A stretch of 64,000 nt of DNA, taken from positions 10,007 to 74,006 of the forward strand of contig CAZIPN010000003.1 in assembly GCA_964541225.1 (NCBI GenBank). Reading direction: 5' to 3'. Positions 4,183-64,000 of the stretch are shown piece by piece. The translations under genes were made by a program, and so were the position numbers. The notes under the pieces are model-generated. The model was not told where the DNA came from. It saw only the letters and a program-made list of their open reading frames with translations, and did not search any database. Positions within the stretch are counted from its first letter, which is position 1; every line of letters begins with the position of its first letter. The DNA is from an uncultured Eubacteriales bacterium. Lineage in GTDB: Bacteria > Actinomycetota > Coriobacteriia > Anaerosomatales > JAAXUF01.

Positions 4183-4186
4183 GCCC

Positions 4187-4609: not shown

Positions 4610-4612
4610 CCG

Positions 4613-4963: not shown

Positions 4964-4982
4964 CGCTCTCCCTCCATCGTGC

Positions 4983-6338: not shown

Positions 6339-6350
6339 CCTCCGGGGGCC

Positions 6351-26180: not shown

Positions 26181-26196
26181 CGACCATCGTTCCGAA

Positions 26197-27480: not shown

Positions 27481-27482
27481 GG

Positions 27483-28010: not shown

Positions 28011-28027
28011 GCGGTCAGGCTCTTCCT

Positions 28028-30469: not shown

Positions 30470-30510
30470 TTAGGTATCCGCCCCATGGTGTGATGGAGAA
30501 TTCAAGGCCG

Positions 30511-31131
30511 TCAGCCGAGAATCTCGGCGATCGTGTCGGCCGTATCTCGCATGTCGTACAGTACGAGCCCGAGCTTCGCCTCAACATCGGCGATGCACGT
30601 CAGCACCGCCTTGTCACCTGCGGCGATGAGCATCACGTAGCCGGTCTCCCCTTCGATGAAGACCTGCGTGAGAGCGCCCCGCCCGAGCTCAGCCGCCGCT
30701 CGCTCGCCGAGCCCAAGGATGGCCGCTGACATCGCACCAACGCGGTCGTCTTGCATGCTGTCTGGCAAAGCCGCAGCCATCGTGAATCCATCCAGCGAAA
30801 CAAGGGCCGCAGCCAACACCTCCTGGTTGTTCTCCATGAGCGCGTCAAGCGCTGCCGCCAGGCGTTCCTCACGACTCGGGCGGTGAGCCACTGCGGCAGC
30901 GCGCGGTTCAGGCGCAGGCGCTTGGACTGGGGCAGGCTCAACAGGAGCGGGAACCTCTGCCGGGGGAGCCGCCGCGGTCGAAACGGGCGGTTCGGCAGGC
31001 GGAGCCGCTTGGGCAGGAGCTTGGGCGGGAGAGCCCGGCACTACAACGGGCGCCGGGAGCAACTCGTCGTCTTCGGCGAAAGCGTCGTCTCCGTCGCTTA
31101 GGAAGAAATCGCCAAATGCATTGTCCGCCAC
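30511..31131 (-). CDS. Roadblock/LC7 (MglB/CvnB-like) domain protein with P/A-rich N-terminal region
   Basis: The C-terminal ~115 aa (LDALMENNQEVLAAALVSLDGFTMAAALPDS...GAMSAAILGLGERAA...VFIEGETGYVMLIAAGDKAVLTCIADVEAKLGLVLYDM) fits Robl/LC7. GTG start at 31131 with GGAGGTG 8 nt upstream. Confidence 0.75.
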   Translation of the reverse strand: MADNAFGDFFLSDGDDAFAEDDELLPAPVVVPGSPAQAPAQAAPPAEPPVSTAAAPPAEVPAPVEPAPVQAPAPEPRAAAVAHRPSREERLAAALDALMENNQEVLAAALVSLDGFTMAAALPDSMQDDRVGAMSAAILGLGERAAAELGRGALTQVFIEGETGYVMLIAAGDKAVLTCIADVEAKLGLVLYDMRDTADTIAEILG

Positions 31132-31282
31132 CAGAACGCACCTCCGAAAACCACTGTCAACAGCCTCGCCGAGCAGCGGCTACGCCGCCTCAAGACCACC
31201 GTCGGCAAGTCACCTCATACTGTCAGAAAGGCACGGGCGAAACAACCGAATCGGCCCCGCCAAGAAGCATTCCGATCTCACG

Positions 31283-50194: not shown

Positions 50195-52879
50195 TCAGTA
50201 CCACCAGGTGTACGTCTGCCCAGCGACGCTTGGTGTGATCCACATGCCGTAGGCACTGGCCTTCTCAACCACGTTGCCACCCGCGTCGTCAAGTTCACGT
50301 GAGTCGCACCACACCTGATACTGCTGCCCTATCGGAACGCGCACGTTCCAGTCGACAGCTCCCGGCGTGTCGCCGGCAAGGCTCGTGCTCGCGATCGACG
50401 CGCCGCTGGAGTCCAGGACGCTGAGTTGAGCCTTGGCTAGGCCCGTGGGCTCCCAGCGAAACGCGAGCGTGGCTTCAGTGTCCGCAGCCACTGTGAAGGT
50501 CGCGGTTTCGATCTGCTCGATGTTGCCCGCATTGTCTACCGACCAATACTCAAGCGTGTGCGTTGTCGCAGAGCTCACCGGCGGGGGCACCACCACGCTC
50601 GTGCTTTCGAGCGCCGCAGCGCCATCAAGCCGATAGTACGTCGCATTCACACCCGATCCGCCCGGGTTGTCCACTGCGACAAACGCGATGGTCGCCGTGC
50701 CAACATACGAGCTGAGCGCGTCGGTGACGGTGCTCGGCGCGGTCGCGTCCACTCCGGTGAGCATGCTCGCGGGCTGCACGACGGCACTGCCTGCGGTCGC
50801 GATCTGAGCATGGGGATCCCCGCCGCCATGGCAGTCCGTGCAGTCCTTCGTGGTGGGAACGCCGTCCGCATGGCACACGGCGCAGCTTGTGCGGACCGTG
50901 CTGGTGCTCTCGCTCGCGAGGACCACCTGTGCGGTTGATGTCGCGTCCACGTGCATGGACGCCAGGTCGCCCGAATGGCAGCCCGAGCCGCTCGTGCAAC
51001 TTGAGTTGTCGCCGAGGGGCGTGTGTGCCACGTCGATGTTGGCGTGCATCGGCGAAGTCGACGTCAGCGTGTGGCATCCAGCCTGCGCGCATGTGGTCGG
51101 ATCAAGTGCCGTCACTGTGTCGGCTGGCGACGGGTGGCACTCCGCACACCCGGCATCCGCTCCGGCTGAGCTGGACTTCGCATGCTCCGTAGCAAGATCC
51201 ACTGCGTGGCAGTCTGCACACGAATACGGACCATAGGTGGTCCCGTCGATGGATAGGGTGCTCGACAAGGGACTGAGTGTGTGGTCCGGTCCGGAGTATG
51301 AGTCGGCAGGATTGTGGACGTTGTGTCCGCCCGCGTCGTAGCTGTCACCATGACACGCGTAGCATGAGGTCGCGTCGCCCTTCTCGTGGCCAATCGTCGC
51401 CGATAGCTTCAGCGCACCTCCGCTTCTCGAAATCCCTTCGACCGTCGCGGTCGCCGACACGGGAGTGTAGGTCGTGTCTGTGCTGCTCCACCCCTCGCCG
51501 GTGTCAGCCGTCGTATGGCATGTCAGACAGAACTCGCGAACTCCCGCATCCGTGCTGGTTTCCAAGCTCGCACCGAGCTCATCTGAAAGCATCGAGCTGT
51601 TTGCGCGAGTCGAACCATGTGGGTTGTGGCAGTCGTAGCACGGCAGCGGAGAGCCGACCGGCAGAGTCCCCCCCGCAGTGACGATCCGGTGGCCTGCCGA
51701 GCTATCGGCTCCCGTGGCGAAGCGCTTGATATCGACGGTGGGGGTCGCGAACCCACTCGGCGTGACACCGCCGTGACACGCGAAACAGGAAGCAGCGTAC
51801 GTACCGTCGGCCTGATCGGACGCGAGTGTCGATGGGGTTGGCGGACGGTAGGCCGCCTTCAAGCCGTCGTACTTGTTGGGCCCGCGGTGCGCCGCATGAC
51901 AGTACAAGCAGTCACCCTCGGCACGCTTGACCGAAGCACCTGTCTCAACCGTCTGAGTCGATTCCGGGATCAGGCGATGTGCATTCGATGTGCTGGCATA
52001 GGCGTCTGGTCCGAGCCACGTCCCAGACACCGGATATCCGCTCGCATCACGCGACGGAGCGTCAGCGGAGGGGTAGTCGCTGCCGAACGCAGTGTTGGTG
52101 GCATCGTGGCAGGTTTCGCACCAGGCGGGGCCTGCCGCCGAGACAGTTGCGCTGCTGACATAGGCGGCCGACAGCATCGGGTTGTCGGCAGCTGAACCGT
52201 GCACCTGATGGCAGCTCGCGCAATCTTGGATAGATGACCCGGTGGTGCGCGACTCATCCATCGAGTGCCCGCTCGACAACCCGAAGGAGTCCACTGTGCC
52301 GGTCATGACATTTGCGGCGCCCCAAACCTTGCCGTCGTGGCAACCACGACACAGCGCGGTCGGATCGGGACTGCTTGATGAAAGCTCCGGCCTTCCAAGC
52401 ATCACCGTCGAACCATCGTGGGAAGTGTGGCACTCGACGCACACCGTCGAGTCCTTGCTCTCGTCAACGTGTGGCGTCGCTCCCCAGCTTGAGGTCACGG
52501 GACCACACTGCGCATAGGCGGTTTGATGCCCGTCCGCCAAGACGGCGGTCACGCGGAAGTGGTAGGCCATGCCGGCCAGGCCATCTACGAAATCGTAGTG
52601 GGTCACATTGGAAAGGCCAACGTAGCGATACGGTCCCTCGACGCTTGTCGCCTCGAAGATGAAGTAGCCCTTCGGCGAGACACCGCTCGGCTTGGTCCAG
52701 GACAGCGAGGCGATGATCGGTTGTGTTCCCTGGGTGGCAACCAAGTCGGACGGAGCATCCCCGTTCGCGGCAAAGACGAGTTTCGGTACGGCAAGAGCGG
52801 CGAGTGCGACAACGCATGCGGCCGCTGCCACAAGAGTTCTACGTGCGCCGATTCTCACGTTTGCGATCCGTCGGACCAA
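50195..52879 (-). CDS. Secreted multihaem c-type cytochrome with FN3-like N-terminal and Ig-like C-terminal modules
   Basis: 894 aa. Signal/anchor is RRTLVAAAACVVALAALAVPKLVFA. An FN3-like block follows (LSWTKPSGVSPKGYFIFEATSVEGPYRYVG...YHFRVTAV). There are 13 CxxCH motifs (CVECH, CRGCH, CASCH, CETCH, CLYCH, CFACH, CYDCH, CLTCH, CYACH, CADCH, CAECH, CAVCH, CTDCH), plus CAQAGCH and CTSGSGCH. The C-terminal module contains GSGVNATYYRLDG...HTLEYWSVDNAGNIE. TTG start has a GGGAGAGGG RBS. Confidence 0.85.
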   Translation of the reverse strand: MVRRIANVRIGARRTLVAAAACVVALAALAVPKLVFAANGDAPSDLVATQGTQPIIASLSWTKPSGVSPKGYFIFEATSVEGPYRYVGLSNVTHYDFVDGLAGMAYHFRVTAVLADGHQTAYAQCGPVTSSWGATPHVDESKDSTVCVECHTSHDGSTVMLGRPELSSSSPDPTALCRGCHDGKVWGAANVMTGTVDSFGLSSGHSMDESRTTGSSIQDCASCHQVHGSAADNPMLSAAYVSSATVSAAGPAWCETCHDATNTAFGSDYPSADAPSRDASGYPVSGTWLGPDAYASTSNAHRLIPESTQTVETGASVKRAEGDCLYCHAAHRGPNKYDGLKAAYRPPTPSTLASDQADGTYAASCFACHGGVTPSGFATPTVDIKRFATGADSSAGHRIVTAGGTLPVGSPLPCYDCHNPHGSTRANSSMLSDELGASLETSTDAGVREFCLTCHTTADTGEGWSSTDTTYTPVSATATVEGISRSGGALKLSATIGHEKGDATSCYACHGDSYDAGGHNVHNPADSYSGPDHTLSPLSSTLSIDGTTYGPYSCADCHAVDLATEHAKSSSAGADAGCAECHPSPADTVTALDPTTCAQAGCHTLTSTSPMHANIDVAHTPLGDNSSCTSGSGCHSGDLASMHVDATSTAQVVLASESTSTVRTSCAVCHADGVPTTKDCTDCHGGGDPHAQIATAGSAVVQPASMLTGVDATAPSTVTDALSSYVGTATIAFVAVDNPGGSGVNATYYRLDGAAALESTSVVVPPPVSSATTHTLEYWSVDNAGNIEQIETATFTVAADTEATLAFRWEPTGLAKAQLSVLDSSGASIASTSLAGDTPGAVDWNVRVPIGQQYQVWCDSRELDDAGGNVVEKASAYGMWITPSVAGQTYTWWY

Positions 52880-53099: not shown

Positions 53100-53738
53100 C
53101 TACGCGCGAGGAAAGAACGGATTCAGCTGCCGCTCTCGACCGATCGTCGTGTCAGGGCCATGGCCCGGATGCACGATCGTGTCGGCAGGCAGCCCGACCA
53201 GCTTGCTCGAGATCGACGTCGACAGCGCCCTTCCGTCGCCTCCGGGCAGATCGGTGCGCCCTACGCTGCCCGCGAACAGCGTGTCGCCCGAGAACAGTCG
53301 CGGCGGTGCCCCCGTGGGTTCCTCGGCGAACAGACAGATGCTGCCAGGAGTATGGCCGGGCGTGTGCAAGACCGTGAGTCGGAGCTGACCCGCCTCAAGG
53401 TGGTCGCCATCGTGCAGGAGGTGATCCGGTTGAGGTGCCGTCTCGTCAAACCCGAACATCGCCCCGCCTGTTGCAACTGGATCGCCGAGATCGGCAGAGT
53501 CATCGGCATGCGCGTACAGGGGAGCATCGGTAGCAGCCTTCAACTCCCGCACCGCACCGATATGATCGAAGTGCTTGTGCGTCAGAACGATGGCCGCGAG
53601 GCGTCGCTCCCCTACTGCGTCGAGAATGGCCGAGGCGTCGGCGGCCGGGTCCAGCACCACGGCAGGCCCTCCCACATCGTCCCTGACGATCCAGCAGTTG
53701 GCCTCAAGCGGACCCAACACGAGGCGTTGTACGAACAT
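53100..53738 (-). CDS. MBL-fold metallo-hydrolase (GloB-like)
   Basis: LTHKHFDHIG (HxHxDH motif), HTPGHTPGS and DTLFAGSVGRTD. 1-nt overlap with the relA stop. Confidence 0.85.
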   Translation of the reverse strand: MFVQRLVLGPLEANCWIVRDDVGGPAVVLDPAADASAILDAVGERRLAAIVLTHKHFDHIGAVRELKAATDAPLYAHADDSADLGDPVATGGAMFGFDETAPQPDHLLHDGDHLEAGQLRLTVLHTPGHTPGSICLFAEEPTGAPPRLFSGDTLFAGSVGRTDLPGGDGRALSTSISSKLVGLPADTIVHPGHGPDTTIGRERQLNPFFPRA

Positions 53739-55954
53739 CAGGTTTCACTCCCGCGTTTCTGACCCGCCTCGCCGGGCATCATTCGGCGAGCCTCGAACAC
53801 ACCTTCAACCCCACGCATTTCGCGCAGTATGCCGTCGAGCCTCGACAGGTCCCCTAGCTCGAACAAGAAGCGCATGTCCACAAGACCGTCCCTGTGAGTT
53901 GTGGTGGAGGACGCCAGGATGTTCACTCCCTGTTCGGCAAGTGCAGATGTCACATCCTGCAGAAGACGCAGCCTGTCCATGGCTTCAACGAAGATCTCGA
54001 CCTGGAACGTGGTGTCCTTGCCGAGATCCCACTCCACGTCGATTATTCGCTCCGGTGAGGACAGCAGCTCACGCGCGTTTGGACAGTCCTTCCGGTGCAC
54101 CGAGACCCCGCGTCCGCGGGTCACAAACCCGATGATATGGTCACCCGGAACCGGATGGCAGCAGTTCGCCAACCTGATCAGCGCGTCGTCGAGTCCCTTG
54201 ACCTTGACACCCCCGGCGGCCCGCCGGCGTTTGCTGCGTGGGGCAAGCATGGGTTTGTCGAGCGTGAACTCCTCGTGAGCTGGCTCTGGCTCGACCCCCT
54301 CGCCCTCCTTGGCCATAAGCTTGAGCAGCTTCGTGCCAACATGTTTCGCCGAGACCTTGCCAGCACCTATCGCCGCGATTATGTCGTCGGCATGCGCGTA
54401 GTTCATCTCATGCGACACCGTGCCGATTGCCTTCTCGGCGGTCTTCGACCCAATGCCGAGACCGTGCTTGCGCATCACCTTCGACAGCTCATCACGACCG
54501 CGGACGAGGTCATCCTCACGAGTGACCTTGCTGAAGTAGCTGCGGATCTTGCTCTTCGCCGATGACGTTCGGACGATGTTGAGCCAGTCGCGCGAGGGAC
54601 TCGCGTTCTTGTTGGTGAGGATCTCTACGCGATCGCCCATCTGCAGTTCATAGCCGAGCGGGACGATGGCACCGTTGACCTTTGCGCCCACGCAGTGATT
54701 CCCGACCTCAGTGTGGATCGCGTAGGCAAAATCGATGGGCGTCGAGCCTCGCTTCAAGCTGATAACGTCGCCCTTCGGGGAGAAGACGAACACCTCCTCC
54801 TCGAACAGGTCGATCTTGAGCGCTTCCATGAACTCACGTGGATCCTTGAGTTCTGTCTGCCACTCCAGCATCTGGCGCAGCCATGCTAGGCGCTCATCGA
54901 AGCTGTCTTCGCCGCGAACGCCCTCTTTGTAGCGCCAGTGTGCCGCAACGCCGTACTCTGCCGTCCTGTGCATCTCCTCGCTGCGAATCTGGATCTCAAG
55001 CGGCGCGCCCGTTGGCCCTATGACCGTCGTGTGCAGTGACTGGTACATGTTGAACTTGGGCATCGCAACGTAGTCTTTAAACCGCCCGGGCACCGGCTTC
55101 CAGATTGAGTGCACAGTGCCCAACGCGCCGTAGCAATCCTTGACCGAATCCACCAGCACTCGCAGCGCAATGAGATCGTAGATCTCGTTGAAGTCTTTGC
55201 CTTTGCGCGTCATCTTCTGATAGACGCTGTACAAATGCTTGGGTCGGCCGGAGATTCGCGCCTGAATACCGACGGCAGCAAGCTCATCGGTGAGCTCGTC
55301 GATCACACGCTGCATGTATTCTTCGCGCGCCTGTCGGCTCTCGGCGACCATGCGCGACACCTGATGGAACTTGTGCGGCTCGAGGTAGTAGAAAGACAGA
55401 TCCTCGAGTTCCCACTTGATGCTGGAGATGCCGAGCCGATGCGCCAACGGCGCGTAGATCTCCATCGTCTCGCGAGCCTTGTCGATCCGTCGGTCCTCAG
55501 GCAGCGCCGCGAGCGTGCGCATGTTGTGCAGCCGGTCGGCGAGCTTGATGAGGATGACGCGGATGTCTTTCGCCATGGCGATGAGCATCTTGCGCAAGTT
55601 GTTGGATTGCGCCTCGGACAGCGATTCGAACTCGATCTGCCCGAGCTTGGTGACCCCATCGACAAGTTCGGTGACCTCATCACCAAAACGCTTGCGCACC
55701 TCGTCAAGCGTCACTCCGGAATCCTCAACAACGTCATGAAGCAGCGCAGCCTTGAGCGTCGGCGTGTCCATGTGGAGTTCAGCGAGAATGAGCGCGACCT
55801 CGATGGGATGATTGACGAACGCCTCGCCGCTCTTGCGAGTTTGCCCTGCGTGGGATTGGACCGCGAAATCGTACGCGTCATCCAGACCGGTCAGATCGGC
55901 GTCAGGGTTGTACGCGAGGACCTGCGCCTCGATCTGCTCAAGAGTCGCGGACAT
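53738..55954 (-). CDS. relA: Bifunctional (p)ppGpp synthetase/hydrolase (RelA/SpoT homolog)
   Basis: 738 aa with an HD domain (HPIEVALILAEL, LLHDVVEDS), synthetase domain (YRSLHTTV-type: MYQSLHTTVIGP), TGS and ACT domains. Confidence 0.95.
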   Translation of the reverse strand: MSATLEQIEAQVLAYNPDADLTGLDDAYDFAVQSHAGQTRKSGEAFVNHPIEVALILAELHMDTPTLKAALLHDVVEDSGVTLDEVRKRFGDEVTELVDGVTKLGQIEFESLSEAQSNNLRKMLIAMAKDIRVILIKLADRLHNMRTLAALPEDRRIDKARETMEIYAPLAHRLGISSIKWELEDLSFYYLEPHKFHQVSRMVAESRQAREEYMQRVIDELTDELAAVGIQARISGRPKHLYSVYQKMTRKGKDFNEIYDLIALRVLVDSVKDCYGALGTVHSIWKPVPGRFKDYVAMPKFNMYQSLHTTVIGPTGAPLEIQIRSEEMHRTAEYGVAAHWRYKEGVRGEDSFDERLAWLRQMLEWQTELKDPREFMEALKIDLFEEEVFVFSPKGDVISLKRGSTPIDFAYAIHTEVGNHCVGAKVNGAIVPLGYELQMGDRVEILTNKNASPSRDWLNIVRTSSAKSKIRSYFSKVTREDDLVRGRDELSKVMRKHGLGIGSKTAEKAIGTVSHEMNYAHADDIIAAIGAGKVSAKHVGTKLLKLMAKEGEGVEPEPAHEEFTLDKPMLAPRSKRRRAAGGVKVKGLDDALIRLANCCHPVPGDHIIGFVTRGRGVSVHRKDCPNARELLSSPERIIDVEWDLGKDTTFQVEIFVEAMDRLRLLQDVTSALAEQGVNILASSTTTHRDGLVDMRFLFELGDLSRLDGILREMRGVEGVFEARRMMPGEAGQKRGSET

Positions 55955-56008: not shown

Positions 56009-58861
56009 TCATTCACACACAACAGTGTACGTGACGGTCGTGGCATACGTCCCAGGATCGAAGGCCCACGGCGGTGTCAACACGAAATCGAATCGATAGT
56101 CGTGCTCCCACACATGGCCATCGCCTGCCGAGGTGTCTAGCTTGTACGGCGCGACCGTGAACGGCTGTTCCGACTGCACTATCCACCCGCTTGTGCTGTA
56201 CGTGAGCGTGTCGACTGGCATCGTCGGGGTGACCGAGCCGGAATCGGTGTTCGTGAAGTCCTCGGCACTGCACCACAGGTCATAGGTCAAGTCGCCAACA
56301 CCGCCGACCAGAACCGTCGTCGCGCTCGCCACCGTCGACGACTCGCCAGGATTGATTGCCCCCATGTAGACGGTATCCGCGGACAAGGACATCCATAGCG
56401 CGGCGTCTGGCGTCGTACCAACAACGGTGACACTGTGTGCCGAGGTAAGACCCGCGTGGTTGTAGGCCACGATGTAGTACGAGTAGCTGGTTCCTGGCGT
56501 CAGGCTTGTGTCCGTGTATGCAAGCGCTGTGGTGGTTGTCACCAACGATCCATCGCGATACACCGCATAGTAGGAGACGCCAGACTGAGCATCAGTCGAT
56601 GGCGCCCACGAGACCTCTATGCTCGTGGTGCTCACTGCGCTCGCGCCAACCGACGTGGGAATCGACGGCGGTGTCGTGTCGAGCTGCAGGATGGCCGTTT
56701 GCGCTGTCTCGATGTGCCCGACATTGTCGACCGAGTAGAAATTGAGCGTGTGAGTGCCATCGACCCCTGGGGGGAACGGCGCAGTGTAGTTGGCCCACGG
56801 GCTGCCGTCGTATCGGTACCTCGTGTAGGCGACACCTGAGCCGGCATCCGTCGCGGTGATGCTTATGCTCGGCAGCGAACTCGTCCATCCGACCGGGATG
56901 TTGCATGTGCTGATGGGCGGGAAGCTCTCAATGAGGAACGGTCCTATGCTCGTAGCAGTTGGGTTCCAGTTGTCGCGCCCGTCGACCGCTCGGACGTTGA
57001 AGTACCAATGGCCATCGCCTGGCGCGGCGGACGTGCTGTTGGGTGTAGGGACGACACCAACGATCGAGATCTCGTCCCAGTCGACGTACTCCGTCCACCC
57101 CCGCACATTCGCTCCGAAGCGAACCATGTAGGCGCTGCTCAAGTTCGGCAGGGCGACGCTGTGCTGCGTCCAGTTCTGCGCAGGGGGTCTTCCCGATACG
57201 TAATACAGGTCGGTCCACGTTGCTCCACCGTCAGTCGAATAGCTCACCGACTCGAAGTTGGCGTTGCGATTGAATGCACTGTGACTGTCCCACCACGTCA
57301 GCGTCGCGGACTGGAAGGCGGACAGGTCATACGTCTTGTAGAAGTAGTCCTCTCGGTACGTGTTGCTGTTGGCCCACACCTCGGCGGCGTTTGGAGCAAG
57401 GTGATAGCGTCCTGCGGCGCCGGTGATGCGCAGGAAGCCGTCGTTCGAAGCCGGCTCCGTCCAGTCCGCCGGGAACGAGGCGCCGTCAAACGCCTGGTTC
57501 TCCTCGGTCACCGAAGCGGTGACGCCCGGTGTGTAGGTGACCGTGTCGGTGGCGGTGTCTGGCAGCCCCGGCGCGTCTCTCGTCCAGCTGAAGCTGTACC
57601 CGGCGAGGCCACTCCCGGCATCAGTGGAGACACTCCATGCCGCTGTCATGGTTGCAACGCCAGACCATACATTCGGTACATGAGTTGGCGACCACGCCCA
57701 TGGCTGAGTGGGAGGCGTCGTGTCAACGACCGTGATCGTCTGCGTTGCCACCGTTGTCGCACCGTCGTCGTCAGTCGCCGTCCAAGTGACCTCAGTGCTG
57801 CCAAACGGCAGCAGACTCCCGGCGACGGGGTTCCGCGTGAACGAGACGACCGTGCCGTCGCCGTCGGTGGCCTGCGCGTCCGTGGCGCCGCTGTAGCCTG
57901 TGTAGCCGGTGGTCGAGTTGGCTTCGAGAGTCTTCGTCGTGAAGTCCAAACTGATAGTGGGTGGCACGTTCACAACCGTGCCGTTGCGCACTTGCCATAT
58001 GTAGCGCCCGAGGACGCCACCCGAGTCCAAGGAGTTCTGAATGAGCGATGTCGAAGAACTAGAAGAATCGAGAAGGGCACTCGGGCCACCCATCGGTGCG
58101 AGGGAGCCGGCCAGTTCGTAGGACCCGTCGGCGCCCTGCGCAGTCGACCAGCCGACAACGGCACGACCAGGCTGCCCACCGGTCGCAGTCCCCGTGTCCC
58201 AATTGATGGTGTTGTAGTTGAACATGATGTCGAAGTTGCCGGCCCCCGTGTCCGAGCGGTCAACAAGCACCATCTGAAACGAGTTCGTGTTCGCTGACGC
58301 CCACCCGTTGTTGTACGACATCACGTCAATCCAGTTGACGATGAAGCAGTTGTGTCCCTCGAACGTTGGTGGAGTCGCCGTCCCGCTGTAGGTGAGCTGG
58401 CCAGAACCACCGTTGCTCGTATCCACATCGGCGAAGAAGGGCGCGATGATTGGCAGATACGGCCGCGGCCACGCGTAGTACCGCGTGGTGGTCAGGTCGT
58501 GCGACTGGTAGGTTTCCGGATAGTTCGAGTCGCAATATGGATCCACGAACGTACAGTTGCCGTTCATGTTGATGTAGATCTGGCTGTAGGGCGTCCCCAG
58601 CCAGTTCATTGCGAACGGCAGATTGACGACTAGGTTGTTCGAGTCATCTCCACGGGCGACCGTGTTGTCTGCGTAGTGTGTCGGCGTGATGATCGCATCC
58701 GCATCCGCGAACGCCGAAACCGGCGAGACAGCGCACCAGGTCAGAAGAACCAGGAACGCCAACAAGCCCACGAGTACCCGTCCTCGCGGGCTGGCGGCAG
58801 GCCTAGACGCTTGCACGCCCAGAACCGGCCCTTCTCTAATGCTGGCTCTGCGCTCCTTCAT
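56009..58861 (-). CDS. Secreted multidomain surface protein: NIDO-like + HYR-like + jelly-roll + Ig-like + FN3
   Basis: Signal peptide is LVGLLAFLVLLTWCAVSPVSAFA|DA. NIDO hallmarks are IYINMNGNCTF, LPIIAPFFADVDT, TNSFQMVL, NYNTINWDTG and GRYIWQVRNG. The HYR-like block is PPTISLDF...FGSTEVTWTATDDDGATTVATQTITVVD. FN3 is IEVSWAPSTDAQSGVSYYAVYRDG...YSYYIVAYN. The start is set at MKERRAS (58861, GGAGAA upstream). Confidence 0.7.
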   Translation of the reverse strand: MKERRASIREGPVLGVQASRPAASPRGRVLVGLLAFLVLLTWCAVSPVSAFADADAIITPTHYADNTVARGDDSNNLVVNLPFAMNWLGTPYSQIYINMNGNCTFVDPYCDSNYPETYQSHDLTTTRYYAWPRPYLPIIAPFFADVDTSNGGSGQLTYSGTATPPTFEGHNCFIVNWIDVMSYNNGWASANTNSFQMVLVDRSDTGAGNFDIMFNYNTINWDTGTATGGQPGRAVVGWSTAQGADGSYELAGSLAPMGGPSALLDSSSSSTSLIQNSLDSGGVLGRYIWQVRNGTVVNVPPTISLDFTTKTLEANSTTGYTGYSGATDAQATDGDGTVVSFTRNPVAGSLLPFGSTEVTWTATDDDGATTVATQTITVVDTTPPTQPWAWSPTHVPNVWSGVATMTAAWSVSTDAGSGLAGYSFSWTRDAPGLPDTATDTVTYTPGVTASVTEENQAFDGASFPADWTEPASNDGFLRITGAAGRYHLAPNAAEVWANSNTYREDYFYKTYDLSAFQSATLTWWDSHSAFNRNANFESVSYSTDGGATWTDLYYVSGRPPAQNWTQHSVALPNLSSAYMVRFGANVRGWTEYVDWDEISIVGVVPTPNSTSAAPGDGHWYFNVRAVDGRDNWNPTATSIGPFLIESFPPISTCNIPVGWTSSLPSISITATDAGSGVAYTRYRYDGSPWANYTAPFPPGVDGTHTLNFYSVDNVGHIETAQTAILQLDTTPPSIPTSVGASAVSTTSIEVSWAPSTDAQSGVSYYAVYRDGSLVTTTTALAYTDTSLTPGTSYSYYIVAYNHAGLTSAHSVTVVGTTPDAALWMSLSADTVYMGAINPGESSTVASATTVLVGGVGDLTYDLWCSAEDFTNTDSGSVTPTMPVDTLTYSTSGWIVQSEQPFTVAPYKLDTSAGDGHVWEHDYRFDFVLTPPWAFDPGTYATTVTYTVVCE

Positions 58862-59007
58862 GTGCGTTTCTCCGTCCGGCACAACGGCGTCACGTCGCGT
58901 GTTCGTGTCACCAAGCACCGGGGTCCGGCGGATAACGCTTGTCCACCTAAGAATCGGCCGAAATCGATACCTCCTGAAGGTCGGGGCGCTTCCCGTGCAC
59001 TTCAACA

Positions 59008-62000
59008 TCAGACGGCTGGGAGGATCGGGCGGTTGAATCGGGCAAGCAGCTCATCGGCCTCGGCTGACAGAACCCAAGCCTTGAACCCCCGGAACTCCGC
59101 TATCTCATCCTTGCCTTCAGCGTATCGAAGGCTCTCGTCGAGGTTCACTTTCTGTTCGCTGGGCGTAAACGAGAGTCTCCGGTAGGAGCCGTGCCCTTCT
59201 CCAGCGACGAATCCCAGGTCACGCAGTATGCCGAGTGCCGAAGAGACCCCTCTCTCGTCGAGTTGGCAACTCCGCCGAACTCGCTTGCAGCGCTCGGCGA
59301 GTTCGGCGTTTGTGATCTCGAACAGGCGCCCCTCAGCTGCTGCGACATCGCGCAGCACGACGTAGAGCGCCGCCATGTCGTCGCGCTCGGGCGCCAGCGA
59401 GGACAAGATCGACTCGTTGATGCGCGCGTCCTTCCCACCGAAAAGCAAATGAATTCGCGCGACCGCACCGTCTCGGCCAGCTCGGCCGGACATCTGATTG
59501 AACTCGACACTGCTAAACGGCATGTGAAAGAGCACGACGTTGCGAATGTCGGGGACATTGACGCCCTCGCCAAACGCGCTCGTCGCGATGATTACGCTGA
59601 TCTCGCCCGCACGAAAAGCCCTCTCCACCGCATGGCGCATCGACCGACCCATACCGCCGTTGTAAAACGCTGTACGCATCGCAAGGTGCGGAACATGCTT
59701 GCGAAGTCGCCGTGCGAGTCGAACGGTCTGTTCGCGGGAGTTCACATAGACAACCGTCTTCTCTCCACGCGAGACGATCTCCTCGACGTACGCTTCTCGG
59801 TTCGCGACATCTCTGCGATCCTCGACCACCAGATTCTCTCGCACGGTCGGATCGAGAACGACCGCCGATATCTTCAATGAGGATCGGATCGCCTGCGCCG
59901 CAGCATCGTCCGCAGTCGCCGTGACGGCGAGAACCGTCGGGTTGCCCAGGGGCTCGAGTGTCTCGCCCAGTCGAGCGTACGCGGGCCGGTTGCCTGCGCG
60001 CGACAATCCTACGTGATGCGCCTCATCGATCACGAGGAAACCGACTCTCCCAGACTCGGCAAAACGCCCCGCGTAGAGGTGCAAGAACTCTGGCGTCGTG
60101 AGCGCGACGTCTAGAGTACCGTCACGCAAGTCGGCAAATGCTTGATCGCGTTCCGCTTGGCTGGATTCGCCGGTAATCGTCCGAACGGTGAGGCCGACCT
60201 CGGCGAAATCCTCCTCAAGGTGGTGCGCCTGGTCCGACACGAGTGCTCGCAACGGGTACACGAAGACACTTGCCCGCGCATGACGCAGCGCGATGCGAGC
60301 CGCGTGAAGATGGAAGATCAGTGACTTGCCGCGCCCCGTAGCCATGACGGTCAGCGTGGACTCGCCAGCTGCAAGATGGGAAAGCGCTTGCGTCTGCGCG
60401 ACGTGGAGGCTCCGCTCACCAAGGAAGCAGCGCACGAGTTCGGCATCAAGCGCCGCAGCGTCTAGCGCTGCAAGTTCCGCCCGCCGTCTCGCCCGCACGG
60501 CAGCACGCTCATCTTGAGTGTCGGCGGTGTCTCGACGGGTGAGAAGAACGTTGACCCCCAAAGACTGCCCGTCCGCTCCTCCTGTGACCTCCGTGACCTC
60601 AACGTCGTAGCCAACACCAGCGTCGATGGTCGGAGCGAGTGCCGCCGCCAGACGACGGTTCAGAAAGCCAACTTGATCCCCTTGGGGATCAAAGAGGGCA
60701 CACGCGTTGGTGTCGAATTGGTTCTCTGGTTGCCGTTCGAGTCGAAGTGGCGTTCCTGCCGAGACACGCACAAGCACCTCTTGACGGCCTTCGAACGTCA
60801 CACCAGCGAGCTTGGTGTGAAATGATGGCGCGTCGCCGATACCTGCGTACTCTTCGCGCGCCAGGATTTCATCGGCACGCGAGAACAGATCTTCGATCAG
60901 GTCGTGAGCTGGCGCGTCTTCTGAGGGCTCGTGCGCCACCGCATCCTCAATCCGCATCTGCACACGCCTGCGTCCACGCCACTCATCGACCGAGACGGAA
61001 AATGCCAAGTCCACCGCCGCCTCGTGTCCAGCCATCCGATCAATCTCGGGACACCGAAACGCAATGGCTTGCACGCTGACCGCCCCATCAAAGGCGGTGA
61101 ACCTCAGGTGGTTCGCCAGCTTGCCGACGCGCTGTCGACCGTTCATGAAGACTCCGCCGACGGCAAGAACTGGTCGGCGATTGCCATGCCCGAACGGCTC
61201 CAGTTGGGAGAGTTCTGTCGCCATCTCCACGCCGATGTCCGAGAGATCAACAAGCGCATCGACGCTGCGCTCGACGCGGAACTGCTCGGCAGGTAGCGCA
61301 TCGAGATGCTTGAGAAGATGTTCGGTGAACCGGTCGAGGTTCTCGGCAGGTAGCGCACAACCGACGGCTGCGGCATGCCCGCCAAAACGCGTAAGTACAT
61401 CCGAGCAGGACTCAAGCGCCCGGAAGAGATCAACGCTGCCCACAGACCTCCCGCTGCCTGAGGCGACCCCGTCATCGATGGCAAAGAGCAGCACCGGAAC
61501 CTTGAACCGCGCTGCCAGCCGAGATGCCACAATGCCCTTCACACCCTCGTGCCAGCCTTCTCCGGCCAGAACCAGCGCGCGCTGGCCGGAGTAGATACGG
61601 TCAGCCATGGCAGAAGCCGCCTCGCTCAGGTCAGCTTCCGTGGCCTGTCGTGTGCGATTGAGTTCATCGAGCGACCTGGAGAGCGACTCGGCGAGGACCG
61701 GATCATCCGTGAGCAGCAAGTCCAACGCGACCTGAGGATCAGCCATGCGACCAGCGGCGTTCATCCGGGGCGCGAGCGCGAAAGCCACTGAGTCCGTGGT
61801 GAATGAGTCCAGAGCGGTACCGGCCACTGCCGCCAATGCGGCGATCGCCACTCTTGGTTGCATGCGCATGCGCGCCACCCCGTCGGCAACCAATGCGCGA
61901 TTCTCAGATGTCAGCGGGACTATGTCAGCGACGGTACCGAGCGTCGCCAGATCCGTTAGATCTCGCCACACCTCGGGAAAACCAAGCCGCTCGCCTACAG

Positions 62001-62634
62001 CCTGTACGAGTTTGAGCGCGACACCAGCGCCTGCCAAGTCAGCAGACCCGCACGACGAGTCATCGAGTTTGGGATCGGCCACGGGTACGCCCGTTGGCAG
62101 CCGATCACCAGGTTCGTGATGGTCGGTTACCACAGTACGGACGCCCTTATCGGCTAAGAGCGCAATTTCGTCGGCCGCTGAGATACCGCAGTCGACGGTG
62201 ACGAGCAGATTCGGTCGCAGGGGCATGATCCGCTCTATCGCCGCAGCTGAAAGACCGTAGCCCTCGGTGAACCGGTGTGGAACCACCGCGGTTACCCGCG
62301 CGCCCATGGCTTGAAGGCCACGGGTGGCAACGGCCGCCGAGGATATGCCGTCGAGGTCAAAATCGCCAAACACGACGATATGTTCGCCGGCACGAACAGC
62401 CTCGGCAACAACTTCAGTAGCAGCGGCCATGCCAGGAATGCGCGTCGGATCGAGCCAATCGCGCTCCAGGCTCGGCGAGAAGAAGCGCTCAACCGCGTCC
62501 GGAGTGGCAATACCGCGTCCAACCAAGATGCGCGACGTTATGGCAGAGACGCCGGTCTGAGCACGTATTCTCTCAACAAGCGCTTCATCCGCAGCGACGA
62601 GTGACCATGGGTTCTCTGGCAGCAGTCTTGTCAT
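59008..62634 (-). CDS. recJ: RecJ (DHH/DHHA1 ssDNA exonuclease) - HIRAN - RecQ-like SF2 helicase fusion protein
   Basis: The N-terminal ~570 aa is RecJ (GDFDLDGISS, TVDCG, VVTDHHEPG, GGHAAAVG, OB-fold region). The HIRAN block is FHTKLAGVTFEGRQEVL...LERQPENQFDTNACALFDPQGDQVGFLNRRLAAAL. The helicase has ATGRGKS, DEAH, TATA and QMSGRAGRDG. The start is set at MTRLLPEN (ATG at 62634) to avoid overlap with secF. Confidence 0.85.
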   Translation of the reverse strand: MTRLLPENPWSLVAADEALVERIRAQTGVSAITSRILVGRGIATPDAVERFFSPSLERDWLDPTRIPGMAAATEVVAEAVRAGEHIVVFGDFDLDGISSAAVATRGLQAMGARVTAVVPHRFTEGYGLSAAAIERIMPLRPNLLVTVDCGISAADEIALLADKGVRTVVTDHHEPGDRLPTGVPVADPKLDDSSCGSADLAGAGVALKLVQAVGERLGFPEVWRDLTDLATLGTVADIVPLTSENRALVADGVARMRMQPRVAIAALAAVAGTALDSFTTDSVAFALAPRMNAAGRMADPQVALDLLLTDDPVLAESLSRSLDELNRTRQATEADLSEAASAMADRIYSGQRALVLAGEGWHEGVKGIVASRLAARFKVPVLLFAIDDGVASGSGRSVGSVDLFRALESCSDVLTRFGGHAAAVGCALPAENLDRFTEHLLKHLDALPAEQFRVERSVDALVDLSDIGVEMATELSQLEPFGHGNRRPVLAVGGVFMNGRQRVGKLANHLRFTAFDGAVSVQAIAFRCPEIDRMAGHEAAVDLAFSVSVDEWRGRRRVQMRIEDAVAHEPSEDAPAHDLIEDLFSRADEILAREEYAGIGDAPSFHTKLAGVTFEGRQEVLVRVSAGTPLRLERQPENQFDTNACALFDPQGDQVGFLNRRLAAALAPTIDAGVGYDVEVTEVTGGADGQSLGVNVLLTRRDTADTQDERAAVRARRRAELAALDAAALDAELVRCFLGERSLHVAQTQALSHLAAGESTLTVMATGRGKSLIFHLHAARIALRHARASVFVYPLRALVSDQAHHLEEDFAEVGLTVRTITGESSQAERDQAFADLRDGTLDVALTTPEFLHLYAGRFAESGRVGFLVIDEAHHVGLSRAGNRPAYARLGETLEPLGNPTVLAVTATADDAAAQAIRSSLKISAVVLDPTVRENLVVEDRRDVANREAYVEEIVSRGEKTVVYVNSREQTVRLARRLRKHVPHLAMRTAFYNGGMGRSMRHAVERAFRAGEISVIIATSAFGEGVNVPDIRNVVLFHMPFSSVEFNQMSGRAGRDGAVARIHLLFGGKDARINESILSSLAPERDDMAALYVVLRDVAAAEGRLFEITNAELAERCKRVRRSCQLDERGVSSALGILRDLGFVAGEGHGSYRRLSFTPSEQKVNLDESLRYAEGKDEIAEFRGFKAWVLSAEADELLARFNRPILPAV

Positions 62635-62707: not shown

Positions 62708-63619
62708 CTACGACGCGTTCGCGTACTTCTTGGCGAGCGCCTTGTACTTTGGCTCGGTTTCTTTCCAGATGGCAAAGATGGGCGCGGCAACCCCGATGGA
62801 CGAATAGGCTCCGGACGCCAGACCAATCACAAGCGCCAGCGCGTAGTCCTTGAGCGTCACTCCGCCGAAGATCAGCAGTACGACGACGGGAATCAGCGAC
62901 GTCAGCGACGTGTTTATGGATCGCATGAGCACCTGGTTGACCGACTCGTTCGCCATGCTCATGAAGGACTGCTTCACCAGCCCTGCCGAGTTCTCCTTCA
63001 TGCGATGGAACACGACGATCGTGTCGTAGAGCGAGTATCCGAGAATCGCCAGGAGCGCAGCCACGACGTTCGGCGAGACTTCCCATCCAACCAGAGCGTA
63101 GAGTCCGAGCGTGATCAAGATGTCGTGGACGAGCGCGACGATCGCGGTCACGGACATCTTGTATTCGAATCGGATCGACACGTACAGCAGAATCGCCAGG
63201 ATCGAAACCGCGAGCGCCACCAGCGAGCTGCTGGTGATGTTCTTGCCCCACTCCGGACCAATGGTCGTGACCTGGAAGCCGTCCGAAGGAAGCCCCACCT
63301 CGCTAGAGGCCTTCGCGGCCGCGGTGTTGGCGATCGCCGCACTCGTCTCACTACTTCGGACGATGTAGCCGCGCACGCCTCTGACAGTCGACTGCTGAAC
63401 CTGCACATTGGCAAGCCCCGCCTTCTTGAAGGCCTGACTCATCTGCGCCTGTGTGACACTGCCGGACTTGGAGACATTGACGACCGTTCCGCCTTCGAAT
63501 TCAACTCCGAACTTCAACCCACGAACAGCGAGGGCACCGATGGCCACGACAATGAGAACAGCGGAGACAATGAACATGATGTTGCGATTGCCCATGAAGT
63601 TGACGTTGAACTTATGCAT
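62708..63619 (-). CDS. secF: Protein translocase subunit SecF
   Basis: MHKFNVNFMGNRNIMFIVSAVLIVVAIGAL, GGT domain and C-terminal TM bundle fit the SecF pattern. 8-nt overlap with the secD end. Confidence 0.9.
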   Translation of the reverse strand: MHKFNVNFMGNRNIMFIVSAVLIVVAIGALAVRGLKFGVEFEGGTVVNVSKSGSVTQAQMSQAFKKAGLANVQVQQSTVRGVRGYIVRSSETSAAIANTAAAKASSEVGLPSDGFQVTTIGPEWGKNITSSSLVALAVSILAILLYVSIRFEYKMSVTAIVALVHDILITLGLYALVGWEVSPNVVAALLAILGYSLYDTIVVFHRMKENSAGLVKQSFMSMANESVNQVLMRSINTSLTSLIPVVVLLIFGGVTLKDYALALVIGLASGAYSSIGVAAPIFAIWKETEPKYKALAKKYANAS

Positions 63620-64000
63620 GCGAGGCACCGCCCTTCTTGCCAGTCGTCGCTCGCGCGGCGATCGCCTCTGGAGGTATCCCCCACAGCGCCGGAGACTTGG
63701 CAATCAGCGTCTCGCCCAGAAGCATGATGAGTGGTCGGCTGAACAGCAGCATCATGACCAGGTCGCACGCAATGCCGAGCATGAGCGTGAGCGCGAAGCC
63801 CTTCACGGGACCAACGGCGATCGCGAAAAGCGCCAGCGCCGACACGAAGGTCACGATGTCTGCGTCTGCGCTGGTGATGATCGCATGCCGCGTTCCGGAC
63901 GCGGCAGCAGAACGCACCGTCTTCCCAAAGCCGATCTCCTCACGAAAGCGTTCGTTGATGAGAATGGATGAGTCGGCCGCCAGACCAATCGTCAGCACGA
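63612..64000 (-). CDS. secD: Protein translocase subunit SecD, 3' end only (gene starts beyond window end)
   Basis: The open frame runs to the window edge. The C-terminal TM region is LTIGLAADSSILINERFREE...GFALTLMLGIACDLVMMLLFSRP, and secF follows. Confidence 0.85.
   Translation of the reverse strand, partial: VLTIGLAADSSILINERFREEIGFGKTVRSAAASGTRHAIITSADADIVTFVSALALFAIAVGPVKGFALTLMLGIACDLVMMLLFSRPLIMLLGETLIAKSPALWGIPPEAIAARATTGKKGGASHA

What the first reader, a model, noticed from the sequence alone, without database searches (positions are those of the whole stretch)
59008..62634. Single polypeptide fusing RecJ exonuclease, a HIRAN domain and a RecQ-like helicase
Seen: one uninterrupted 1208-codon frame contains three parts. 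The first is a complete RecJ core with DHH motifs (GDFDLDG, TVDCG, DHHEPG), DHHA1 (GGHAAAVG) and an OB-fold region. The second is a HIRAN-type block (FHTKLAGVTFEGRQEVLVRVSAGTPLRLERQPENQFDTNACALFDPQGDQVGFLNRRLAAALAPTID). The third is an SF2 helicase with motifs I (ATGRGKS), II (DEAH), III (TATA) and VI (QMSGRAGRDG, the RecQ-family signature), plus a ~150-aa C-terminal tail. The gene sits in the canonical secDF-recJ position. Established: RecQ helicase and RecJ 5'-3' exonuclease act together in RecFOR-dependent gap and end processing. HIRAN domains (HLTF, Rad5) bind 3'-OH DNA ends at stalled forks. Inference: this is a Rosetta-stone fusion that hard-wires unwinding, 3'-end recognition and 5' resection into one enzyme. 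I am not aware of a characterised example of this tri-domain enzyme.
Basis: partly seen in the sequence, partly recalled or inferred. Interest (0 to 1): 0.7.

Follow-up and report, generated by a model that had tools for sequence, protein, structure and literature searches.

The report
Natural RecJ–HIRAN–RecQ-like helicase fusion enzyme
The organism's RecJ DNA-repair nuclease really is fused in one protein to a DNA 3'-end-binding HIRAN domain and a RecQ-like helicase; this looks like a self-contained DNA-end resection machine, is widespread in Gram-positive anaerobes, and I found no study of it.

Summary
The gene lies on the minus strand (ATG 62634, TGA 59010-59008) and encodes 1208 aa in one frame. 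It contains a complete RecJ core (TIGR00644 above cutoff), a HIRAN domain (Pfam above cutoff; profile hits HLTF HIRAN at 6e-12), an SF2 helicase and a ~140-aa winged-helix tail. RecQ-family proteins are the helicase's nearest relatives in sequence and predicted fold.

It is not a frameshift artefact. More than 120 protein clusters match full length, and relatives occur in at least 566 species genomes. These include cultured Olsenella, Parafannyhessea and Thermincola with HIRAN, and Collinsella without it. RecJ catalytic residues are 100% conserved; helicase motifs are 92-96% conserved.

The helicase is RecQ-like but not a strict RecQ. It scores below the TIGR00614 cutoff and has no Zn-binding cysteines, no HRDC and no aromatic-rich loop.

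One unexpected extra emerged. The "RecJ C-terminal domain" PF10141 of shorter RecJs aligns collinearly with this helicase's second RecA lobe plus tail (hhalign E 2.5e-54). It is probably a vestige of the fusion.

The most likely function is an ATP-driven, 3'-end-guided 5' resection enzyme that takes the place of RecJ. This is inferred, not shown. No literature on the architecture was found. It is a new variant of a known kind.

The parts
59008..62634 (-). Whole gene: 1208 codons plus TGA (59010-59008). RecJ core, leader, HIRAN, RecQ-like helicase and winged-helix tail in one frame.
   Evidence: Identical protein P0001 and 120 full-length homologue clusters.
60937..62634 (-). RecJ 5'-3' ssDNA exonuclease core, aa 1-566 (DHH 85-234, DHHA1 352-440, RecJ_OB 458-564).
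   Evidence: TIGR00644 468 bits against cutoff 397. Pfam. D91, D93, D95, D148, D171, H172, H173, D237 and GGH418-420 are 100% conserved in the query plus 63 diverse representatives.
60826..60936 (-). Conserved helical leader, aa 567-603 (…DLIEDLFSRADEILAREEYAGIGDAPSF). It belongs to the HIRAN-helicase module, not to RecJ.
   Evidence: Column identity 0.84. Also present at the N-terminus of standalone HIRAN-helicase proteins. Predicted helices.
60535..60825 (-). HIRAN domain, aa 604-700. Predicted six strands plus two helices. N638, D641 (= HLTF D94), A644 and G656 are retained.
   Evidence: Pfam HIRAN 35.2 bits against 24.7. Family profile against PDB: HLTF HIRAN 6e-12, Lp_0118 (3k2y) 2e-8. 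Conservation. Model.
59440..60423 (-). RecQ-like SF2 helicase core, aa 738-1065, two RecA lobes. Motifs 0, I (ATGRGKS), Ia, Ib, II (DEAH), III (TATA), IV, V and VI (QMSGRAGRDG) are all intact.
   Evidence: Pfam DEAD and Helicase_C. Best PDB sequence hit is E. coli RecQ 1oyw at 1.3e-30. Best fold hits are RecQ, RECQL5, WRN, RECQ1 and BLM at about 1e-22. Motif conservation 92-96%.
59011..59439 (-). C-terminal tail, aa 1066-1208: helical hairpin, winged helix and two helices, ending in a conserved N-x-P-I-x-P motif. Homologous to the C-terminal half of Pfam PF10141.
   Evidence: AF2 pLDDT 86. Only generic winged-helix fold hits. 14 of 33 diverse tails hit PF10141, best E 7.9e-9. No conserved Cys.
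62708..63703 (-). secF, immediately upstream in the same orientation (context).
   Evidence: SecD_SecF_C 2.6e-55. Same synteny in Olsenella porci.
53738..55954 (-). relA/spoT, downstream synteny partner (context). Here it is separated from recJ by one extra gene.

Best explanation
This is the organism's housekeeping RecJ, in a form that carries its own motor. One 1208-aa polypeptide joins an intact RecJ 5'-3' ssDNA exonuclease to a self-contained module: helical leader, HIRAN, RecQ-like SF2 helicase and winged-helix tail.

Proposed mechanism (inferred):
1. HIRAN captures a free 3'-OH end, at a double-strand end or at the primer terminus of a gap or stalled fork.
2. The helicase loads on that strand and translocates 3'->5' into the duplex using ATP.
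3. The displaced 5'-ended strand is fed in cis to the RecJ active site and degraded.
4. The product is the 3' ssDNA tail or enlarged gap needed for RecFOR/RecA loading.

In effect the E. coli RecQ + RecJ partnership is built into one protein, with a 3'-end sensor added.

Shown here: the architecture, its conservation, intact catalytic motifs in both enzymes, a conserved HIRAN 3'-OH-contact aspartate, and the orthologous recJ locus.

Inferred: helicase polarity, coupling of the two activities, and the role of HIRAN.
For: - Domains and thresholds.
- Full-length conservation without junction gaps in 120 clusters.
- Among the 150 best 50%-identity representatives, about 50 are RecJ-HIRAN-helicase-tail and about 30 are RecJ-helicase-tail.
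These include isolate genomes of Olsenella porci, O. intestinalis, Parafannyhessea umbonata and Collinsella aerofaciens. Thermincola ferriacetica, Dendrosporobacter and Peptococcaceae also carry it.
- RecJ catalytic residues are 100% conserved. Helicase K770, D870, E871, R1051 and R1054 are 92-96% conserved in the query plus 63 diverse full-length representatives.
- HIRAN N638, D641, A644 and G656 are retained in essentially all HIRAN-bearing members, and the HIRAN profile hits HLTF HIRAN at 6e-12.
- Nearest sequence and fold relatives of the helicase are RecQ-family helicases.
- The synteny secD-secF-recJ*-relA is conserved in Olsenella, and recJ*-relA in Collinsella.
- The module also exists as a standalone protein, so the fusion joined two working units.
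- Established knowledge, not tested here: E. coli RecQ and RecJ cooperate in RecF-pathway resection, and HLTF HIRAN binds 3'-OH ssDNA ends.
Against: - No biochemical or genetic data exist for any member.
- The helicase fails the RecQ-family cutoff and lacks the Zn-binding tetrad, HRDC and aromatic-rich loop. RecQ-like polarity and substrate preference are therefore extrapolations.
- HIRAN is dispensable in whole genera such as Collinsella.
- The aromatic equivalent to HLTF Y93 is variable.
- In five of 63 representative lineages the helicase motifs have decayed while RecJ stays intact. Shorter RecJs keep only a vestige. The motor is therefore not indispensable for RecJ function.
- I could not test whether these genomes also carry a separate recQ, or addAB, recBCD or adnAB.
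Confidence: 0.7

Rival explanations
1. Fork-remodelling enzyme rather than end resection. As in HLTF, HIRAN grips the nascent leading-strand 3' end at a stalled fork and the SF2 motor drives fork regression or unwinds the nascent lagging strand. RecJ only trims the nascent lagging strand (the RecQ/RecJ stalled-fork processing model).
For: The HIRAN is homologous to HLTF HIRAN with the 3'-OH-contact Asp conserved. HIRAN sits directly before an SF2 motor, as it does in HLTF/Rad5. Processing of nascent lagging strands by RecQ and RecJ at blocked forks is established in E. coli (knowledge, not tested here).
Against: The motor is RecQ-like, not a SNF2-type dsDNA translocase. HIRAN is absent in many active members, so the core function does not depend on it. 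Sequence alone cannot distinguish this from end resection, and the two roles are not mutually exclusive.
Confidence: 0.2
2. In this protein the helicase part is a non-catalytic DNA-binding or regulatory appendage of RecJ, like the vestigial PF10141 domain of shorter RecJs, and it hydrolyses no ATP.
For: Degenerate helicase motifs occur in 5 of 63 representatives. Reduced RecJs keep only an inactive second RecA lobe plus tail. The appendage can therefore persist without catalysis.
Against: In the window protein, and in 92-96% of representatives, Walker A Lys, DEAH and both motif VI arginines are intact. Motifs Ia, Ib, III, IV and V are also conserved.
Confidence: 0.06
3. Anti-phage or mobile-element function. 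The helicase resembles the DpdF and PsyrT defence or toxin helicases, and the nuclease degrades foreign DNA.
For: The best PADLOC hits are DpdF models (196 bits) and PsyrT (180 bits). One standalone HIRAN-helicase (P0147, L081) lies next to small ORFs and an HTH gene.
Against: The window gene and its orthologues occupy the housekeeping secDF-recJ-relA-hisS-aspS locus, vertically conserved across a bacterial class. The RecJ part passes the recJ equivalog model. No partner defence genes are adjacent. The PADLOC hits cover only the generic RecQ-like core.
Confidence: 0.03
4. Sequencing or assembly artefact: a frameshift or missed stop merges separate recJ and helicase genes.
For: None found.
Against: The same continuous ORF occurs in hundreds of independent assemblies, including isolate genomes. 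Homologues show no gaps across either junction.
Confidence: 0.01

Closest known systems
E. coli RecQ helicase + RecJ exonuclease (RecF-pathway resection, two separate proteins)
   Same: The same two enzymatic activities are predicted: a RecJ equivalog core and a RecQ-like two-lobe SF2 motor. The predicted outcome, 5' strand removal, is the same.
   Different: Here the two are covalently linked, with a HIRAN domain between them. The helicase lacks the RecQ Zn-binding tetrad, HRDC and aromatic-rich loop, and scores below TIGR00614.
HLTF / Rad5 (HIRAN + SF2 motor)
   Same: A HIRAN domain lies immediately N-terminal to an SF2 ATPase. The HIRAN core motif NPxDxNA with the 3'-OH-contact Asp is conserved.
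   Different: The motor is RecQ-like, not SNF2. There is no RING domain. A nuclease is attached. The aromatic at the HLTF Y93 position is variable.
WRN (RecQ helicase fused to an exonuclease) and Dna2, AddAB, RecB, AdnAB helicase-nucleases
   Same: A helicase and a nuclease in one polypeptide for DNA-end or flap processing. WRN helicase is among the top fold hits.
   Different: The nuclease here is a DHH-family 5'-3' RecJ, not a DnaQ-like 3'-5' exonuclease or a RecB/PD-(D/E)xK nuclease. The domain order is nuclease, HIRAN, helicase.
Long-form Firmicute RecJ with C-terminal domain PF10141 (ssDNA-exonuc_C), e.g. the ~787-aa Bacillus RecJ discussed in bioRxiv 10.1101/2020.02.19.956169
   Same: Same RecJ core. 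The PF10141 region is homologous and collinear with the second RecA lobe plus tail of this protein (hhalign probability 100%, E 2.5e-54; Pfam overlaps).
   Different: Those proteins lack HIRAN and the first RecA lobe, and their helicase motifs IV-VI are degenerate. The window protein has the full, intact motor.
Mycobacterium smegmatis RqlH and PsyrT / DpdF RecQ-like helicases
   Same: Divergent RecQ-like SF2 cores outside canonical RecQ. PADLOC PsyrT and DpdF models score 180-196 bits.
   Different: None of these is fused to RecJ or HIRAN. According to its paper's abstract, RqlH is a separate clade (PMC3378886, listed). I recall that it has a Zn-binding tetracysteine, which is absent here; that is memory, not tested.

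Membership tests
Bacterial RecJ (TIGR00644 equivalog) | Score above the curated equivalog cutoff over the whole core | tested here: met
   468.4 bits against cutoff 396.9, aa 30-564 matching model positions 2-545 of 546.
Bacterial RecJ (TIGR00644 equivalog) | DHH motifs I-IV, DHHA1 GGH and the OB domain present with catalytic Asp/His intact | tested here: met
   Pfam DHH, DHHA1 and RecJ_OB above cutoffs. D91, D93, D95, D148, D171, H172, H173, D237 and GGH418-420 are 100% conserved.
Bacterial RecJ (TIGR00644 equivalog) | 5'-3' ssDNA exonuclease activity | not testable with these tools
   Needs biochemistry.
HIRAN domain (PF08797) | Pfam score above the gathering threshold | tested here: met
   35.2 bits against 24.7. 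Homologues score 47-61 bits.
HIRAN domain (PF08797) | Homology to the structurally defined HLTF HIRAN, with the conserved 3'-OH-contact Asp in NPxD | tested here: met
   Profile A4 against PDB: HLTF HIRAN 6e-12. D641 and N638 are retained in essentially all HIRAN-bearing members. The predicted domain has six strands and two helices.
HIRAN domain (PF08797) | Binding of free 3'-OH ssDNA ends | not testable with these tools
   Needs EMSA with 3'-OH against 3'-phosphate ends. The Y93-equivalent aromatic is variable (F640 here).
RecQ family helicase (TIGR00614 / TIGR01389) | Score above the curated family cutoff | tested here: not met
   TIGR00614 168.4 bits against 219.8. TIGR01389 171.5 bits against 640.2. 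Only the two RecA lobes align.
RecQ family helicase (TIGR00614 / TIGR01389) | SF2 motifs 0, I, Ia, II (DEAH), III, IV, V and VI | tested here: met
   All are present and 90-96% conserved. The best PDB sequence and fold matches are RecQ-family.
RecQ family helicase (TIGR00614 / TIGR01389) | RecQ-Ct with a four-Cys Zn-binding subdomain | tested here: not met
   No invariant or near-invariant Cys in the tail of 47 close or 33 diverse members. No RQC Pfam hit.
RecQ family helicase (TIGR00614 / TIGR01389) | Winged-helix domain after the motor | tested here: inconclusive
   A winged helix is predicted at the equivalent position. It matches only generic wHTH folds at E >= 0.04. The whole C-half aligns over about 500 columns with RecQ catalytic cores, but at high rmsd.
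RecQ family helicase (TIGR00614 / TIGR01389) | HRDC domain | tested here: not met
   No HRDC hit at E <= 0.1. The protein ends 140 aa after motif VI.
RecQ family helicase (TIGR00614 / TIGR01389) | Aromatic-rich loop between motifs II and III (E. coli W154, F158, R159) | tested here: not met
   The aligned segment is HHVGLSRAGNRPAY: W->S, F->N, with only R883 and Y886 conserved.
PF10141 ssDNA-exonuc_C (RecJ C-terminal domain) | Pfam score above the gathering threshold (26.4 bits) | tested here: not met
   The window protein scores 15.7-16.5 bits. Family members P0322 (33.7), P0314 (29.9) and P0315 (36.2) pass. 14 of 33 tails hit, and hhalign gives E 2.5e-54. The domains are homologous, but this instance is sub-threshold.

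The most novel reading that the evidence does not exclude
The RecJ-(HIRAN)-RecQ-like helicase fusion is an autonomous, ATP-driven bacterial end or gap resection machine with a built-in 3'-OH sensor, functionally parallel to RecBCD, AddAB and AdnAB. It is also the ancestral state of RecJ in Gram-positive lineages. On this reading, the enigmatic PF10141 'RecJ C-terminal domain' of Firmicute RecJ, including Bacillus-type enzymes, is the decayed remnant of that helicase (second RecA lobe plus winged-helix tail). This would explain why those organisms recruit separate RecQ or RecS helicases.
Probability: 0.35. Interest if true: 0.75.

Novelty: new variant of a known kind. Interest (0 to 1): 0.58.

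Why it matters
RecQ-RecJ cooperation is a textbook two-protein pathway. A natural covalent fusion, conserved across hundreds of species, is strong independent (Rosetta-stone) evidence that the two act as one physical unit. It also offers a compact single-chain system for structural and single-molecule study of coupled unwinding and 5' degradation.

It places a HIRAN domain in a defined bacterial repair enzyme. Bacterial HIRAN biology is essentially unexplored, and this makes the '3'-end sensor' idea testable outside eukaryotic HLTF/Rad5.

The carriers include abundant human gut Coriobacteriia (Collinsella, Olsenella). Their recombination machinery is unstudied, and databases label the protein simply 'RecJ'.

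The link between PF10141 and a vestigial helicase lobe gives an evolutionary explanation for a Pfam domain of unknown function found in many Firmicute RecJs.

Tried and rejected
- **Plus-strand reading of the stated coordinates:** full of stops. The gene is on the minus strand.
- **Longer ORF start (TTG 62826):** rejected. It overlaps secF, and homologues and P0001 start at the ATG at 62634.
- **Frameshift artefact:** rejected.
- **Tail as a RecQ RQC, Zn or HRDC region:** sequence profile against PDB found only weak MarR/ArsR-type wHTH hits. Foldseek of the tail alone found only generic wHTH at E >= 0.04. No conserved Cys is present.
- **Literature:** six searches found nothing on a fusion. 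'hiran' mostly matched author names, and 'RecJ-RecQ' hits refer to the two-protein pathway.
- **Defence-system reading:** PADLOC hits are to the generic RecQ-like core of DpdF and PsyrT, and the context is housekeeping.
- **Search with the C-half of the degenerate P0251:** only 2 hits because of the word index. One of them, P0300, turned out to be the key intermediate.
- **Separate recQ in the same genome:** none in the 64-kb window among the ORFs scanned.


Full report
**1. The observation**

The + strand of 59008-62634 is full of stops. On the minus strand the mechanical ORF runs from TTG 62826 to the stop at 59008.

The N-terminal 64 codons of that ORF overlap the end of secF (stop TAG 62710-62708). 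The biologically sensible start is ATG 62634 (MTRLLPENPW…), 73 nt after secF.

**2. Domain content**

Pfam finds the following, all above gathering thresholds:
- DHH (aa 85-234)
- DHHA1 (352-440)
- RecJ_OB (458-564)
- HIRAN (607-675; 35.2 bits against 24.7)
- DEAD (746-911)
- Helicase_C (950-1056)

NCBIfam's recJ equivalog TIGR00644 scores 468 bits against a cutoff of 397 over aa 30-564. The best helicase models are recQ (TIGR01389, 171 bits) and recQ_fam (TIGR00614, 168 bits), both below their cutoffs.

Against PDB sequences the C-terminal half is closest to E. coli RecQ (1oyw, 1.3e-30), then RecQ4, WRN, RECQ1, RECQ5 and BLM. Only the two RecA lobes align.

An AlphaFold2 model of aa 567-1208 (pLDDT 83.9) gives RecQ catalytic cores, RECQL5, WRN, RECQ1 and BLM as its top Foldseek hits, at E about 1e-22.

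A profile of the HIRAN region from 30 family members hits the solved HLTF HIRAN domains at 6e-12 and the bacterial HIRAN protein Lp_0118 at 2e-8. The model shows the expected six strands and two helices.

**3. It is not an artefact**

An identical 1208-aa protein is on record. 120 clusters at 62-100% identity cover the full length with the same Pfam set, and most are labelled only 'RecJ' from Coriobacteriia or Anaerosomatales MAGs. Their alignment has no gaps across either junction. The linker at aa 576-600 is among the best-conserved segments.

**4. Distribution**

An exhaustive HMMER search of 1.84 billion 50%-identity representatives with aa 581-1208 gave 654 representatives at E <= 1e-30. 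I classified the best 150 with domain HMMs built from the family:
- about 50 are RecJ-HIRAN-helicase-tail
- about 30 are RecJ-helicase-tail without HIRAN
- 7 are standalone HIRAN-helicase-tail proteins
- the rest are helicase-tail proteins or fragments

- With HIRAN: isolate genomes of Olsenella porci, O. intestinalis, Parafannyhessea umbonata and Coriobacteriaceae EMTCatB1.
- Without HIRAN: Collinsella aerofaciens, C. tanakaei, C. massiliensis and C. bouchesdurhonensis.
- These architectures were verified by ORF and Pfam analysis.

Outside Actinomycetota, the tri-domain form is abundant in Clostridia (Peptococcaceae, Thermincola ferriacetica), in Dendrosporobacter, and in Armatimonadota.

The genomic position is orthologous:
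- secF-recJ*-(one extra gene)-relA-…-hisS-aspS in the window
- secD-secF-recJ*-relA in O. porci
- recJ*-relA in C. aerofaciens

The rest of the window is housekeeping: alaS, dxs, aroC and type IV pilus ATPases.

**5. Are the enzymes alive?**

I examined the query plus 63 diverse full-length representatives.
- RecJ metal-binding and catalytic residues (D91, D93, D95, D148, D171, H172, H173, D237, GGH418-420) are 100% conserved.
- Helicase Walker A K770, DEAH D870/E871 and motif VI R1051/R1054 are 92-96% conserved.
- The HIRAN residues N638, D641 (equivalent to HLTF D94, the 3'-OH contact by my recollection of the HLTF structures), A644 and G656 are retained in essentially all HIRAN-bearing members.
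- The residue equivalent to HLTF Y93 (F640 here) varies.

The window protein has every motif intact.

Five representatives have degenerate helicase motifs with an intact RecJ: P0242, P0251 (Bacillota), P0252 (Armatimonadota), P0256 and P0261.

**6. What the helicase is and is not**

It is RecQ-like by nearest-neighbour criteria, but it fails the tests for strict RecQ membership:
- It is below the TIGR00614 cutoff.
- It has no conserved cysteines for the Zn-binding subdomain.
- It has no HRDC.
- The aromatic-rich loop is replaced by a variable segment; only R883 and Y886 are conserved.

PADLOC DpdF and PsyrT models score as high as RecQ. This places it in the broad RecQ-like clade rather than in canonical RecQ.

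**7. The tail and an unexpected link**

The last ~140 aa fold into a helical hairpin, a winged helix and two helices (pLDDT 86). The tail ends in a conserved N-x-P-I-x-P motif. Fold and sequence searches identify only generic winged-helix proteins.

However, the tail repeatedly gives hits to Pfam PF10141 (ssDNA-exonuc_C), the function-unknown C-terminal domain of long Firmicute RecJs:
- 14 of 33 diverse tails hit it, best E 7.9e-9.
- It is above threshold in the active tri-domain protein P0322.

Following this lead produced a reductive series:
- P0251 (1077 aa) has both RecA lobes, but with degenerate motifs.
- P0300 (Peptococcales RecJ, 884 aa) is 62% identical to P0251 in the RecJ core. It then jumps straight to P0251's second RecA lobe plus tail at 42% identity; the first lobe is deleted.
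- In P0314, Helicase_C (815-909) and PF10141 (876-1060) overlap.
- P0315 (854 aa) is a plain 'RecJ + PF10141' protein above threshold.
- Desulfonispora thiosulfatigenes RecJ (P0316) is of the same type.

A profile-profile comparison of 12 such reduced RecJs with the helicase family gives probability 100% and E 2.5e-54 over 270 collinear columns. These span the second RecA lobe and the tail, with motifs IV, V and VI unrecognisable in the reduced forms.

PF10141 is therefore homologous to the second RecA lobe plus winged-helix tail of this helicase. Decay from a full helicase is the natural direction, but that direction is an inference.

**8. Origin of the module**

The unit of leader helix, HIRAN, helicase and tail exists on its own. 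P0147 is 642 aa, on a 35.8% GC contig, with non-coding sequence upstream and small ORFs and an HTH gene downstream. The fusion therefore joined two complete units. HIRAN-less and HIRAN-bearing fusions both retain active motifs.

**9. Mechanism (inferred)**

A 3'->5' RecQ-like motor loading on the 3'-ended strand moves into the duplex and displaces the 5'-ended strand. RecJ degrades 5'->3' and so travels the same way. Covalent linkage guarantees hand-off. HIRAN would supply recognition of the free 3'-OH at a DNA end, gap or stalled fork.

This reproduces in cis the RecQ + RecJ resection reaction known from E. coli (established knowledge, not tested here).

I rate this at 0.7. The HLTF-like fork-processing variant is rated 0.2 and is not mutually exclusive. 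A catalytically silent appendage, a defence role and an artefact are all unlikely (0.06, 0.03 and 0.01).

**10. Novelty**

Six full-text searches found no paper describing a RecJ-helicase or RecJ-HIRAN fusion. Databases call it simply 'RecJ'.

The closest treated relatives are:
- two-protein RecQ/RecJ
- HLTF/Rad5 (HIRAN + SF2)
- WRN and other helicase-nucleases
- the long Bacillus-type RecJ, whose C-terminal domain a preprint interprets differently, as 'PIWI-like' (10.1101/2020.02.19.956169)

It is a new variant of known kinds of machinery, not a new category. The window's copy is one ordinary member of a large, unstudied family.

Interest is 0.58. A recombination specialist would find the natural fusion and the PF10141 link worth an experiment, but the underlying partnership is already textbook.

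Noticed in passing
Related proteins P0300, P0314, P0315, P0316 (Desulfonispora thiosulfatigenes RecJ); alignment A6 vs A2: Pfam PF10141 ('RecJ C-terminal domain', function unknown) is collinear and homologous with the second RecA lobe plus winged-helix tail of this helicase (hhalign E 2.5e-54). Intermediates with a deleted first lobe and degenerate motifs exist. It is probably a vestigial helicase.
   Followed up: yes
Related proteins P0242, P0251, P0252, P0256, P0261: Five of 63 full-length representatives (Armatimonadota, a Bacillota MAG and others) have lost Walker A, DEAH and motif VI residues. They keep RecJ catalytic residues, and three keep the HIRAN NPxDPxA motif. These look like pseudo-helicase forms.
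   Followed up: partly
window 56009-59008 (-): A 999-aa ORF with a NIDO (nidogen-like) domain and a fibronectin type III domain is inserted between recJ and relA. Its first ATG overlaps the recJ stop (tgATG), and the real start is uncertain. By my recollection NIDO is mainly an animal extracellular domain, so a bacterial copy is unusual.
   Followed up: no
window 50195-52879 (-): An 894-aa multihaem cytochrome c (paired CXXCH, cytochrome c7/c3 motifs) lies in what appears to be a Coriobacteriia genome. This hints at extracellular or respiratory electron transfer.
   Followed up: no
L081 (JGI 3300014197 contig, 5854 bp), gene 265-2193: A standalone HIRAN-helicase-tail protein (P0147, 642 aa) sits on a 35.8% GC contig, with non-coding DNA upstream and small ORFs plus an HTH repressor-like gene downstream. 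It may be on a mobile element.
   Followed up: partly
window 59011-59034 (-), aa 1200-1208; family-wide: A conserved C-terminal N-x-P-I-x-P motif (P1203 89%, P1206 90% across diverse members) lies at the very end of the protein. It may be a partner-binding peptide, but nothing is known about it.
   Followed up: no
window 24429-32956 (-): Two PilB/GspE-type secretion ATPases (833 and 557 aa, MshEN + T2SSE) flank an 813-aa DUF4388 protein. This looks like a type IV pilus or secretion cluster.
   Followed up: no
L075 (Collinsella aerofaciens) 4174-7506; L062-L080: All Collinsella genomes retrieved carry the HIRAN-less RecJ-helicase form (~1110 aa) directly upstream of relA, whereas Olsenella and Parafannyhessea keep HIRAN. 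This points to lineage-specific loss or gain of HIRAN within Coriobacteriales.
   Followed up: partly
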